From positions 13,780 to 77,779 of IMG/VR virus record IMGVR_UViG_3300045988_103014: 64,000 nucleotides of DNA; one strand, written 5' to 3'. This DNA comes from a virus. Below, one piece after another: positions 34,221 through 34,894 of this stretch. How positions within the stretch are numbered: the stretch's first letter is position 1; the number at the start of each line of letters is the position of its first letter. The translations under genes and the position numbers were made by a program. The notes below the pieces were generated by a model. It saw only the letters and a list, made by a program, of their open reading frames with translations. It searched no databases and was not told where the DNA came from.

Positions 34221-34442
34221 ATGACTGATGCAGAAAGAATTCTTGTATTAAAAAAGGCGTTAGAAATGACTGCCAAAGTAATTAGAGATAATCCCCCAGA
34301 AATGGACTGGCATTTAGAAGATGGTCAGCGAATAAAAATTCTTGCTGGCGGCGTAAATAGAGACCCTGAAGGCGCTGAATATGTAAATTATTTTATTGTT
34401 CAGGCTTATCACGATTTGAAAGAGAAAGGATTGGTTGAATAA
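34221..34442 (+). CDS. small hypothetical protein (73 aa)
   Basis: RBS GGAGGG. Confidence 0.45.
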   Translation: MTDAERILVLKKALEMTAKVIRDNPPEMDWHLEDGQRIKILAGGVNRDPEGAEYVNYFIVQAYHDLKEKGLVE

Positions 34443-34894
34443 TGGCATTTGAATTAAATGAAAAAAGACTTATTACAACCGCATATCGTATGTGCTTGGC
34501 AAATTATGATAAAAAGAAAATGGCTCACGCACAACGAGTGGCTGATTATGCGGCTGAAATCGCATTAAGAGATGCAGATTTTGCAAGACATAGTTATACA
34601 GAAACTGATGCGTATGTGACAGGTTTATTGCATGACCTTTTGGAAGATACACATTGCAGCTTTGATGAATTTTATAGCACTTTTCCATCTCATATTACTG
34701 AGGCAGTCACCATTTTAACCAAAGAAGATGATGAAACATATGACCAGTATATTGATAGAGTGCTTGAGTCAGAAAACATTTTAGCATTTGATGTTAAGAA
34801 GGCTGATATGAAGGACCACCTTGCTCTCAAGGACACTTTAACCGATAAGTTGAAAGCAAAGTATTTCCCTCATATTGCTAAATTCTTGGTATAA
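34442..34894 (+). CDS. HD-domain phosphohydrolase, SpoT/Mesh1-like small alarmone ((p)ppGpp) hydrolase candidate
   Basis: H...HD pattern: MAHAQRVADYAAEIA and GLLHDLLEDT closely resemble RelA/SpoT hydrolase motifs. Confidence 0.6.
   Translation: MAFELNEKRLITTAYRMCLANYDKKKMAHAQRVADYAAEIALRDADFARHSYTETDAYVTGLLHDLLEDTHCSFDEFYSTFPSHITEAVTILTKEDDETYDQYIDRVLESENILAFDVKKADMKDHLALKDTLTDKLKAKYFPHIAKFLV

What the first reader, a model, noticed from the sequence alone, without database searches (positions are those of the whole stretch)
34442..34894. SpoT/Mesh1-like HD hydrolase (possible phage (p)ppGpp hydrolase)
The 150-aa ORF has an H ... HD signature (MAHAQRVADYAAEIA and LLHDLLEDT) that closely resembles the hydrolase domain of RelA/SpoT-homolog small alarmone hydrolases. 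A phage alarmone hydrolase would blunt the host stringent response or nucleotide-alarmone-based defence.
Basis: inference. Interest (0 to 1): 0.5.

Follow-up and report, generated by a model that had tools for sequence, protein, structure and literature searches.

The report
Phage small alarmone hydrolase, Aph1-like
This 150-residue gene of a large gut phage encodes a small SpoT/Mesh1-type enzyme that strips 3'-pyrophosphate from alarmone nucleotides or tRNA ends, a known kind of phage counter-measure, although this branch of the family is untested and often sits among tRNA-repair genes.

Summary
The ORF at 34442-34894 (+) and its H…HD…ED motifs are real. By sequence profile and predicted fold the protein is a stand-alone RelA/SpoT-homolog (RSH) hydrolase, a "small alarmone hydrolase".

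Its closest solved relative is Aph1 (PDB 7smg), a (p)ppApp-specific hydrolase of the same compact size. The classic (p)ppGpp hydrolases (Mesh1, Rel, SpoT, PaSAH) come next.

It is not an Aph by signature. Only the C-terminal Lys-Tyr of the six Aph residues is conserved in its clade. The base-selecting loop is missing, and an invariant His replaces the usual Asn in motif HD6. Pfam HD_4 barely detects the clade.

About 218 retrieved homologs share these clade features. They come from uncultured phages and prophages of gut Clostridia, and none has been characterised.

The gene is third in a four-gene unit (promoter, two small ORFs, HD, metallophosphoesterase, terminator). That unit lies in a tRNA/RNA-repair and NAD-salvage island. 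A Thg1-like gene lies within 3 kb in 10 of 25 dereplicated lineages. The other lineages place the gene among nucleotide-metabolism genes.

Phage hydrolases of this type are already shown to neutralise toxSAS toxins, so this is a new member of a known kind. The substrate, (p)ppApp, (p)ppGpp or pyrophosphorylated tRNA, is unresolved.

The parts
33955..33975 (+). Terminator-like hairpin that ends the upstream unit (AGGGGGTACATTGTACCCCCT followed by a T-rich tail)
   Evidence: 9-pair stem, 6 GC pairs; sequence read
33977..34005 (+). Sigma-70/sigma-A-type promoter (TTGATT, 17-nt spacer, TATAAT, with a TG extended -10). It is a diverged copy of a conserved 40-nt phage promoter found at least 11 times in the window.
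   Evidence: (11 matches at <=3 mismatches, all on the + strand, 0 expected by chance)
34028..34219 (+). orf63, a small protein of unknown function and the first gene of the unit
   Evidence: gene calls in L001-L004; no Pfam, PHROG or PADLOC match; not conserved next to the HD gene in other lineages
34221..34442 (+). orf73, a small protein of unknown function. Its stop codon overlaps the HD start codon (TAATG).
   Evidence: no family match; a homolog lies near the HD gene only in L042
34442..34894 (+). The finding: a stand-alone RSH-type HD 3'-pyrophosphohydrolase (small alarmone hydrolase), 150 aa. Predicted metal ligands are H29, H64, D65 and D122; the catalytic pair is E68-D69. Clade-specific conserved residues are K119, K124, D125, H126, T132, K140 and Y141.
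34905..35708 (+). Co-transcribed calcineurin-like metallophosphoesterase, 267 aa. Its start lies 10 nt after the HD stop codon and has its own Shine-Dalgarno sequence.
   Evidence: Pfam Metallophos 7e-11, PHROG 1649; within 3 kb of the HD gene in 7 of 25 lineages; model pLDDT 90 with generic fold matches, Dbr1 first at TM 0.58
35707..35728 (+). Terminator-like hairpin that closes the four-gene unit. The next copy of the conserved promoter (35734-35773) follows at once.

Best explanation
The gene encodes a catalytically intact, stand-alone RelA/SpoT-homolog hydrolase (a small alarmone hydrolase) of a large phage that infects gut Clostridia.

Inferred mechanism, by homology with Rel, Mesh1 and Aph1: a divalent metal (Mn2+ or Mg2+) held by H29, H64, D65 and D122, together with the E68-D69 pair, activates water to cleave the ester between the ribose 3'-oxygen and a 3'-(pyro)phosphate. 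The basic and aromatic residues K119, K124, K140 and Y141 hold the phosphates.

The protein belongs to an uncharacterised sister clade of the Aph1/PbcSpo hydrolases. I therefore think its most likely substrate is an adenosine carrying a 3'-pyrophosphate. That means free (p)ppApp, the pyrophosphorylated A76 of tRNA made by toxSAS toxins (CapRel, PhRel2, FaRel2), or both.

Its likely role is to cancel toxSAS- or alarmone-type abortive-infection responses so that phage translation continues. The conserved sigma-A-like promoter suggests expression from host RNA polymerase.

Shown here: family membership, intact catalytic residues, operon structure, gene context and distribution. Inferred: chemistry, substrate and biological role.
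For: Family: phmmer against PDB gives 7smg Aph1 as best hit at E=1.6e-7, with the other RSH hydrolases marginal. The family profile against PDB gives Aph1 1e-10 and Mesh1 2e-7, then SpoT, Rel, TdActApo2 and PaSAH from about 1e-6 to 3e-5, with no significant hit outside the RSH hydrolases. Foldseek on a pLDDT 92.8 model puts Aph1 first (E=4.5e-5, TM 0.66-0.70), then PaSAH (TM 0.74), Mesh1, RelH and Rel/SpoT. TIGR00691 spoT_relA gives a local hit at 7e-6.

Catalytic competence: H29, H64, D65, E68, D69 and D122 are invariant, and the RSH-typical 'HDxxEDT' motif is present.

Aph-like traits: compact size (150 aa against 143-149 aa for Aph1), about eight helices and no extra C-terminal helix (PMC10083569). 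K140-Y141 match Aph1 K133-Y134. [quoted passage not shown]

Precedent: Aph1 matches PVP-SE1 gp220 at 38% identity, E=4e-12. That phage hydrolase neutralises all five tested toxSAS toxins, including the tRNA-pyrophosphorylating ones (PMC7229694). ATfaRel and MESH1 restore aminoacylation of pyrophosphorylated tRNA in vitro (10.1101/2021.04.30.441581).

Context: the window holds 34 tRNA genes, a TROVE-like protein, Thg1, an RNA ligase, a Pol-beta-type nucleotidyltransferase, a DEDD exonuclease and a Pnkp-like kinase. Thg1 lies within 3 kb of the HD gene in 10 of 25 lineages dereplicated at 60% identity, in both orders. The chance expectation is about 4% (my estimate for a single-copy gene in a 100-200 kb genome). 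PhoH and NamPT score 0 of 25. A distant relative in Listeria phage A511 lies among tRNA genes, a TROVE-like protein, RtcB and an RNA ligase.

Host group: clade members occur in Lachnospiraceae and other Clostridia genomes. tRNA-pyrophosphorylating toxSAS are documented there (Clostridium hylemonae PhRel2, PMC11782079).
Against: No substrate was tested, and nothing here can test one.

The clade lacks four of the six Aph specificity residues. D24 is lost with its loop. D116 is deleted. R119 is replaced by Thr, Leu or Gln. R96 is kept in only 39% of members, though the query has it as R106. Adenine specificity therefore cannot be transferred from Aph1. In Aph1 the D24R/R119A double mutant gains ppGpp activity (PMC10083569), so the loss of these residues may mean broad specificity that includes (p)ppGpp.

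The invariant His126 replaces the Asn found at this position in Aph1, Mesh1 and PVP-SE1 gp220 and reported for TtRel (PMC10083569). Its effect is unknown.

In roughly half of the lineages the neighbours are DNA-replication and nucleotide-metabolism genes (dUTPase, RecD2, Pol III alpha, FolD, ThyX, Gmk, NrdD), not RNA-repair genes. That context suits a free-nucleotide substrate equally well.

The synteny counts are not fully independent, because many of these phages are related.

Pfam HD_4 is matched by only 6 of 48 members.
Confidence: 0.55

Rival explanations
1. It is a dedicated (p)ppGpp hydrolase. It keeps host (p)ppGpp low during infection so that the stringent response does not shut down rRNA and tRNA synthesis, translation, GTP synthesis or primase.
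For: It belongs to the RSH hydrolase family, with all catalytic motifs shared with Rel, SpoT and Mesh1. The two Aph1 residues whose mutation unlocks ppGpp hydrolysis (D24, R119) are absent from this clade (PMC10083569). About half of the lineages place the gene among nucleotide-metabolism genes. One locus includes guanylate kinase, which is a known (p)ppGpp target in Firmicutes (my own background knowledge). IMG and UniProt annotators name relatives '(p)ppGpp synthase/hydrolase'. The jumbo-phage survey predicts 'HD-alarmone PDEases' (PMC7824862).
Against: The closest characterised relative is (p)ppApp-specific. The loop that bears the guanine-stacking and hydrogen-bonding residues of TtRel (R43, R44, S45) is deleted. 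The positions of TtRel N150 and T153 are occupied by His126 or are deleted or variable. Pfam HD_4 and the SpoT/RelA NCBIfam models score far below their cut-offs. The database names are automatic annotations, not tests.
Confidence: 0.2
2. It is an RNA-end enzyme and not a nucleotide hydrolase. It would be specialised to remove 3'-pyrophosphate (or 3'-phosphate) from the tRNA acceptor end. It would work with Thg1 (5' end), the nucleotidyltransferase, the exonuclease (3' end) and the ligase as an acceptor-stem and tRNA repair kit.
For: Thg1 is the most persistent neighbour: 10 of 25 lineages within 3 kb, in varying order. The metallophosphoesterase scores 7 of 25, the MVP/SPFH-like protein 6 of 25, the DEDD exonuclease 5 of 25 and the nucleotidyltransferase 4 of 25. 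The same theme appears in the unrelated Listeria phage A511. RSH hydrolases can de-pyrophosphorylate tRNA CCA ends (10.1101/2021.04.30.441581). 'HD-like' phosphatases are listed among jumbo-phage RNA-repair parts (PMC7824862). The base-recognition loop is lost but the phosphate-binding K/Y residues are kept, as might be expected if the rest of the substrate is an RNA chain.
Against: About half of the lineages have no RNA-repair neighbour. The RNA ligase itself is rarely close (2 of 25 within 3 kb). A 150-aa protein has no obvious RNA-binding extension. Inherited gene order inflates the synteny counts. No direct evidence exists.
Confidence: 0.25
3. It is an immunity enzyme against the phage's own (p)ppApp-synthetase toxin, as Aph1 is for the MuF-fused Apk2 toxin.
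For: Aph1 is the closest solved relative and is itself phage-encoded (PMC10083569).
Against: No ORF carrying the RSH-synthetase 'EhQhRT' motif occurs in the window or in about 120 related loci (14,871 ORFs). The test is crude. The upstream genes are two small unknown ORFs, a type II REase-like nuclease and an MVP-like protein. No MuF domain was seen nearby. Only 64 kb of the ~194 kb genome could be examined.
Confidence: 0.05
4. It belongs to another HD subfamily or acts on a non-alarmone substrate. Candidates are a 5'-deoxynucleotidase or dNTPase (YfbR/HD_3-like), a cyclic phosphodiesterase, or a Mesh1-like NADPH or PAPS 2'/3'-phosphatase that serves the adjacent NAD-salvage island.
For: Pfam assigns only the generic HD model. 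A few relatives touch HD_3 (5 of 48) or YfbR-like (3 of 48) at E of about 2e-3. Mesh1 is an NADPH phosphatase and binds PAPS (PDB 5vxa and 9chy). An NAD island lies 4.6 kb downstream.
Against: The 'HDxxEDT' motif and all top sequence and structure hits are RSH hydrolases. YfbR scores Foldseek probability 0.41 and TM 0.28. NAD genes are near the HD gene in very few other lineages: NamPT, Prs and Macro each in 1 of 25.
Confidence: 0.07

Closest known systems
Aph1 (adenosine 3'-pyrophosphohydrolase 1, Bacteroides caccae prophage; PDB 7smg) and the Aph family (Ahmad et al. 2023, PMC10083569)
   Same: It is the best sequence and fold match. Both are stand-alone, compact proteins of ~145-150 aa with about eight helices. 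Both have the same metal and catalytic residues (H, HD, ED, D). They share Y100 (Aph1 Y90), K119 (K107) and the C-terminal K140-Y141 (K133-Y134). Both are phage-borne.
   Different: The clade lacks the 'DKxGxPYxxH' loop that carries D24. D116 is deleted, and R119 is replaced by Thr, Leu or Gln. R96 is not conserved in the clade. His126 replaces N114. No toxin or immunity gene is adjacent. Identity is only ~23-25%.
Phage stand-alone small alarmone hydrolases PVP-SE1 gp220 (PbcSpo) and SSU5 (PaSpo), and the C. marina ATfaRel antitoxin (Jimmy et al. 2020; Kurata et al. 2021)
   Same: These are phage-encoded or toxin-antitoxin-encoded single-domain RSH hydrolases. They neutralise (pp)pApp-producing and tRNA-pyrophosphorylating toxSAS, and ATfaRel de-pyrophosphorylates tRNA in vitro. 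The family profile matches PVP-SE1 gp220 at hhalign probability 97.8%.
   Different: Similarity is limited to the catalytic core (32% over 77 aa). PVP-SE1 gp220 has Asn at the HD6 position ('ADLRHN'). Its neighbours differ (thymidylate kinase and others). SSU5 PaSpo was not compared here.
Mesh1, and the hydrolase domains of Rel/SpoT and PaSAH (classic (p)ppGpp or dual-specificity hydrolases)
   Same: Same fold and motifs HD2 to HD5. PaSAH gives the highest TM-score (0.74).
   Different: Those enzymes are 175-200 aa or larger, with at least nine helices. They have an Asn at HD6 and a guanine-binding N-terminal loop. Pfam HD_4 recognises them but not this protein.
'HD-alarmone PDEase' and 'HD-like' RNA-end phosphatases listed for jumbo phages (Iyer et al. 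2021, PMC7824862)
   Same: Both are predicted roles for HD proteins of large phages that also carry tRNA arrays, RNA ligases, RlaP-type nucleotidyltransferases, TROVE, Thg1 and NAD-salvage genes. This window shows exactly that setting.
   Different: Those are survey-level predictions from cultured jumbo phages. No full-length member of this clade exists in the cultured-phage collection.

Membership tests
RelA/SpoT-homolog (RSH) hydrolase superfamily (small alarmone hydrolases) | HD-domain fold with metal ligands H…HD…D (motifs HD2, HD3, HD5) | tested here: met
   H29, H64-D65 and D122 are invariant. Model pLDDT is 92.8. The fold matches Aph1, PaSAH, Mesh1 and Rel.
RelA/SpoT-homolog (RSH) hydrolase superfamily (small alarmone hydrolases) | Catalytic Glu-Asp pair directly after HD ('HDxxED(T)', motif HD4) | tested here: met
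   'LLHDLLEDT' is present. E68 is conserved in 253 of 256 and D69 in 250 of 256 homologs.
RelA/SpoT-homolog (RSH) hydrolase superfamily (small alarmone hydrolases) | Asn four residues after the last metal-binding Asp (motif HD6) | tested here: not met
   His126 occupies this position and is invariant in the clade (218 of 218). Asn is found at this position in Aph1, Mesh1, PVP-SE1 gp220 and the 34 Aph-like homologs.
RelA/SpoT-homolog (RSH) hydrolase superfamily (small alarmone hydrolases) | Match to the curated models (Pfam HD_4 PF13328; NCBIfam TIGR00691) | tested here: inconclusive
   The query hits only the generic HD model, PF01966. HD_4 is hit by 6 of 48 members, best E=2.4e-5. TIGR00691 gives a local hit of 24.6 bits against a cut-off of 499.
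RelA/SpoT-homolog (RSH) hydrolase superfamily (small alarmone hydrolases) | Hydrolysis of a ribose 3'-pyrophosphate | not testable with these tools
   This needs an enzyme assay.
Aph family of (p)ppApp-specific hydrolases (Ahmad et al. 2023) | Signature residues D24, R96, D116, R119, K133 and Y134 | tested here: not met
   Only K133/Y134 are conserved, as K140 (89% K, 11% R) and Y141 (100%). R96 corresponds to R106 in the query but is kept in only 39% of the clade. D24 is lost with its loop, D116 is deleted, and R119 is replaced by Thr, Leu or Gln.
Aph family of (p)ppApp-specific hydrolases (Ahmad et al. 2023) | Compact eight-helix protomer that lacks helices 0 and 9 of Rel and PaSAH | tested here: met
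   The protein is 150 aa. DSSP finds eight long helices plus one four-residue turn. The best fold match is 7smg.
Aph family of (p)ppApp-specific hydrolases (Ahmad et al. 2023) | Tetramer; ppApp turnover with no ppGpp turnover | not testable with these tools
   Only a monomer was modelled. Activity needs an assay.
Type IV antitoxin or immunity hydrolase paired with a toxSAS or (p)ppApp synthetase | An adjacent RSH-synthetase toxin gene | tested here: not met
   The 'EhQhRT' synthetase motif is absent from 14,871 ORFs of the window and about 120 loci (a crude motif test). The Pfam-annotated neighbours show no RelA_SpoT domain.
Phage RNA-repair cassette (ligase, nucleotidyltransferase, end-modifying enzymes and scaffold; Burroughs & Aravind syntax as summarised in PMC7824862) | Conserved operonic linkage to an RNA ligase and other repair parts | tested here: inconclusive
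   Linkage to Thg1 (10 of 25 lineages), the metallophosphoesterase (7 of 25) and the MVP/SPFH-like protein (6 of 25) is clear. The RNA ligase is close in only 2 of 25. About half of the lineages show no repair genes nearby.

The most novel reading that the evidence does not exclude
The His126 clade may be a branch of RSH hydrolases that has lost its nucleotide-base-reading loop and become an RNA-end enzyme. It would be a dedicated tRNA 3'-CCA de-pyrophosphorylase or 3'-phosphatase. Phages of gut Clostridia would carry it next to Thg1 as an 'acceptor-stem repair' pair, to undo CapRel-, PhRel2- or FaRel2-type tRNA pyrophosphorylation. This would be a natural anti-toxSAS counter-defence built into tRNA-repair cassettes.
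Probability: 0.25. Interest if true: 0.6.

Novelty: new member of a known kind. Interest (0 to 1): 0.33.

Why it matters
toxSAS systems such as CapRel are established anti-phage defences. They stop translation by pyrophosphorylating tRNA, or they drain ATP by making (pp)pApp. Phage small alarmone hydrolases can cancel both effects in co-expression tests. How phages use them in nature is still little studied.

This clade is abundant in phages of gut Clostridia (about 218 retrieved homologs). It has an unusual active-site His. It also recurs next to tRNA-end repair genes. That makes it a convenient place to test whether some phage hydrolases have specialised on tRNA rather than on free alarmones.

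If it is simply a broad alarmone hydrolase, it adds one more example to a known class and is useful mainly for annotating these phages.

Tried and rejected
- **Near-identical DNA in cultured phages:** none found. No cultured phage has a full-length clade member; matches cover the catalytic core only.
- **A second paralog in the same genome:** suspected because L017's contig has the same length as the ENA contig. Rejected. L017 is the orthologous locus of a related phage, and hmmsearch finds one copy in the window.
- **A cognate toxSAS or (p)ppApp-synthetase partner:** no synthetase motif in any locus.
- **A phage-borne defence system:** no PADLOC match for the HD protein or its operon partners.
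- **The nucleotidyltransferase neighbour as a CCA-adding enzyme:** not supported. It is a minimal Pol-beta-type enzyme ('YGS…DGSDVD') with no Pfam, NCBIfam or PDB match. It is more like the RlaP type described in PMC7824862, though I did not test that.
- **Using the co-transcribed metallophosphoesterase to decide between RNA and nucleotide substrates:** inconclusive. PDB sequence search found nothing. The fold search gave only generic superfamily matches, with Dbr1 first at TM 0.58, then LpxH and Mre11.
- **dNTPase, YfbR or cyclic-phosphodiesterase classification:** rejected on profile and fold evidence.
- **Active-site geometry around His126:** could not be examined, because model coordinates are not exposed to the scripting tool.
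Full report
**Observation.** The window has a 150-codon ORF at 34442-34894 on the + strand.

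The gene is real. The identical protein is encoded on at least 19 contigs read from several metagenome assemblies, always with the same neighbours. It has 115 relatives in the word-indexed search and 2,958 at E<=1e-3 in the exhaustive search. In a 48-sequence alignment H29, H64, D65, E68, D69, Y100, Y103, K119, D122, K124, D125, H126, T132, K140 and Y141 are invariant.

**What family it is.** Pfam gives only the generic HD domain (E=1.4e-6) and not HD_4. PHROGs gives 'metal-dependent phosphohydrolase' (phrog_990, 3e-18). NCBIfam gives a short local match to spoT_relA, far below its cut-off.

- The best solved-structure match by sequence is 7smg, the (p)ppApp hydrolase Aph1 (E=1.6e-7). Mesh1, Rel and the other small alarmone hydrolases (SAHs) are marginal.
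- With the family profile, every significant PDB match is an RSH hydrolase: Aph1 1e-10 and Mesh1 2e-7, then SpoT, Rel, TdActApo2 and PaSAH from about 1e-6 to 3e-5.
- An AlphaFold2 model built on the family alignment is confident (pLDDT 92.8, pTM 0.89).
- Foldseek against the PDB ranks Aph1 first, then PaSAH (TM 0.74), Mesh1, TdActApo2, RelH and Rel/SpoT. YfbR-type nucleotidases are at noise level.
- Against viral predicted structures the matches are phage proteins annotated as RelA/SpoT-family.

The protein is therefore an RSH-type 3'-pyrophosphohydrolase with all metal-binding and catalytic residues intact.

**Which branch of the family.** Ahmad et al. (PMC10083569) define the Aph family by D24, R96, D116, R119, K133 and Y134, with N114 as the ribose-contacting Asn. 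Chain numbering in 7smg equals their numbering, so the HMMER alignments can be read directly.

I aligned 256 sequences: the query, A511 gp54 and 254 retrieved homologs. They split into two groups.

- 34 are Aph-like. They have the 'DKxGxPYxxH' loop that carries D24, an Asn at HD6, an Arg at the R119 position (68%) and R96 (91%).
- 218, including the query, form a distinct clade. The N-terminal loop is short ('YxxKxxxH'). D116 is deleted. Thr132 (93%), or Leu/Gln in the HMMER register, replaces R119. R96 is kept in only 39%. The block K119-x-A-D-M-K-D-H126 … T-L-T-D-K-L-K-x-K140-Y141 is strongly conserved.
- His126 is invariant where Aph1, Mesh1 and PVP-SE1 gp220 have Asn and where the paper places TtRel N150.
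- Only the Lys-Tyr pair of the Aph signature survives. The paper reports that pair as conserved in Aph proteins and not in (p)ppGpp-hydrolysing enzymes.
- The clade also shares Aph1's compact size and helix count.
- Only 6 of 48 members reach Pfam HD_4.

I conclude that this is a sister clade of Aph1, not a member of the Aph signature group. Aph1's adenine specificity cannot simply be transferred to it. The Aph1 D24R/R119A double mutant gains ppGpp activity, so losing these residues could mean relaxed specificity.

**Link to tested phage enzymes.** A 104-residue stretch of Aph1 matches 469 phage records. One is PVP-SE1 gene 220 (38% identity, E=4e-12). That 'PbcSpo' hydrolase, like the one from phage SSU5, neutralised all five toxSAS toxins tested (PMC7229694).

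The query family relates to PVP-SE1 gp220 at hhalign probability 97.8%, through the catalytic core only. Kurata et al. (10.1101/2021.04.30.441581) showed that FaRel2, PhRel2, PhRel and CapRel pyrophosphorylate the tRNA 3'-CCA end. They also showed that the hydrolases ATfaRel and MESH1 restore aminoacylation of such tRNA.

A pyrophosphorylated tRNA end and ppApp present the same chemical group, an adenosine 3'-diphosphate. That point is my inference. A phage hydrolase that counters toxSAS is therefore a known kind of thing. The jumbo-phage survey PMC7824862 also already lists an 'HD-alarmone PDEase' and 'HD-like' RNA-end phosphatases.

**Local anatomy.** A 40-nt promoter occurs at least 11 times in the window, always on the + strand, against 0 expected by chance. 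It reads TTGATT, a 17-nt spacer, then TGTTATAAT followed by ATATATGTAAG.

- A diverged copy at 33977-34005 follows a hairpin at 33955-33975.
- A perfect copy at 35734 follows a hairpin at 35707-35728.
- Between them lie four tightly packed genes: orf63 (34028-34219), orf73 (34221-34442), the HD gene, and a calcineurin-like metallophosphoesterase (34905-35708).
- The orf73 stop overlaps the HD start.
- The promoter is of the host sigma-A type, which suggests transcription by host polymerase. I did not establish its timing.

**Wider context.** The window comes from a phage of about 194 kb. It carries the following features.

- 34 tRNA genes and a ROOL RNA
- a TROVE/VWA-like protein, a Thg1-like protein and an 823-aa major-vault-protein-like protein
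- a type II REase-like nuclease
- a DEDD exonuclease, an Rnl5/DRB0094-like RNA ligase, a minimal Pol-beta-type nucleotidyltransferase and a Pnkp-like kinase
- an NAD-salvage and ADP-ribose island: nicotinamidase-like, Prs-like, NamPT, macro-like, NAD synthase, NADAR and YqeY

**Is the context conserved?** I collected 121 loci from viral contigs, bacterial genomes and metagenome assemblies. I searched them with iterated HMMs of the window's neighbours and dereplicated by HD identity.

Counts for neighbours within 3 kb of the HD gene, over 25 lineages at 60% identity:

| Neighbour | Lineages |
|---|---|
| Thg1-like | 10 |
| Metallophosphoesterase | 7 |
| MVP-like | 6 |
| DEDD exonuclease | 5 |
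| Nucleotidyltransferase | 4 |
| RNA ligase | 2 |
| PhoH, NamPT | 0 |

- Thg1 lies on either side of the HD gene, at distances from 0.6 to 5.9 kb, so the proximity has survived rearrangement.
- For a single-copy gene in a 100-200 kb genome the chance of falling within 3 kb is about 4% (my estimate).
- The lineages are related phages, so the counts are not independent.
- A distant relative in Listeria phage A511 has E/Y in place of D122/H126 and is more divergent. It lies among tRNA genes, the same TROVE-like protein, RtcB, a YqeY-like protein, an RNA ligase and a phosphoesterase.
- In about half of the lineages none of these neighbours is present. There the gene sits among dUTPase, RecD2, Pol III alpha, FolD, ThyX, guanylate kinase and NrdD, or next to GmrSD-like and cold-shock proteins.
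- The RNA-repair link is therefore real but partial.

**Other tests.**

- No RSH-synthetase motif was found in any locus. This argues against a toxin-immunity pair, though the test is crude and most of this genome was not available.
- PADLOC finds nothing for the operon.
- Clade members in bacterial genomes are nearly all from Clostridia, mostly Lachnospiraceae, including cultured isolates. toxSAS are known in that group (C. hylemonae PhRel2, PMC11782079; Coprobacillus FaRel2).
- The positional ortholog in a related phage is only 45% identical, while flanking genes keep 68-78% nucleotide identity.
- The co-transcribed phosphoesterase is 50-64% identical to its relatives, against 35-53% for the HD protein. 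The HD gene evolves fast, as counter-defence genes often do; that interpretation is my inference.
- The phosphoesterase model gave only generic fold matches and did not help to decide the substrate.

**Conclusion.** The '(p)ppGpp' label is not specifically supported.

My best reading is an Aph1/PbcSpo-related small alarmone hydrolase. I think it removes 3'-pyrophosphate from adenosine moieties, either free (p)ppApp or pyrophosphorylated tRNA, to counter toxSAS-type responses. Broad activity that includes (p)ppGpp is a live alternative.

It is a new and uncharacterised member of a known kind. The invariant His126, the lost base-reading loop and the recurrent Thg1 neighbour are the features worth an experiment.

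Noticed in passing
window 2007-2608 (+); promoter copy at 1954-1993: A full-length ROOL RNA (Rfam RF03087, 207 bits, model positions 1-574 of 574) lies inside the tRNA array. A copy of the conserved phage promoter sits directly upstream of it.
   Followed up: partly
window 1642-24703 (+): ARAGORN tRNA genes covering most amino acids. Rfam adds two tRNA hits that ARAGORN does not call: 23433-23549 (117 nt, possibly intron-containing) and 6335-6406.
   Followed up: no
window 30797-33268 (+); also L005 1675-4167 and L007 5381-7903: An 823-aa protein has major-vault-protein shoulder (5e-26) and vault-repeat domains. It lies within 3 kb of the HD gene in 6 of 25 lineages. A Band_7/flotillin protein also occurs nearby in L007 and L126. 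It may be an SPFH-type scaffold of the RNA-repair module.
   Followed up: partly
window 26166-27707 (+): A 513-aa TROVE/Ro-like protein (DUF2828 + DUF7788, weak VWA match; PHROG 850 'RNA-binding protein'). The same family lies next to the HD homolog in Listeria phage A511 and in L126. No Y RNA was found at the Rfam gathering threshold.
   Followed up: partly
window 39524-45310 (+): An NAD-salvage and ADP-ribose island: isochorismatase/nicotinamidase-like, Prs-like pyrophosphokinase, NamPT, macro-like (weak match), NAD synthase, NADAR and YqeY. It looks like a phage NAD+-reconstitution counter-defence set.
   Followed up: no
window 1093, 1496, 1954, 5088, 7459, 18325, 22868, 28778, 30723, 35734, 40920 (all +); diverged copies at 33977 and 38630: A 40-nt conserved promoter (TTGATTTTTATTAAAAAATTTGTTATAATATATATGTAAG) occurs at least 11 times, with 0 expected by chance. 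Several copies directly follow a terminator-like hairpin, so the repeats appear to mark transcription-unit boundaries.
   Followed up: partly
window 33341-33949 (+): A 202-aa protein with a PD-(D/E)xK-like motif matches the PADLOC type II restriction-enzyme model (6e-17). It lies between the MVP-like gene and the HD operon.
   Followed up: no
window 12460-15313 (+): Two adjacent radical-SAM-domain proteins (462 and 505 aa) lie between two blocks of tRNA genes.
   Followed up: no
window 46145-46669 (+): An AAA_33 P-loop kinase matches the kinase module of bacterial Pnkp (TIGR04075, 3.6e-11). It is a likely RNA 5'-kinase for the repair set.
   Followed up: no
L017 versus window (orthologous loci): The HD gene is only 45% identical at protein level between two related phages whose flanking genes keep 68-78% nucleotide identity. 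In the window the MVP-like gene, the REase-like gene and two small ORFs are inserted between Thg1 and the HD gene, relative to L017.
   Followed up: partly
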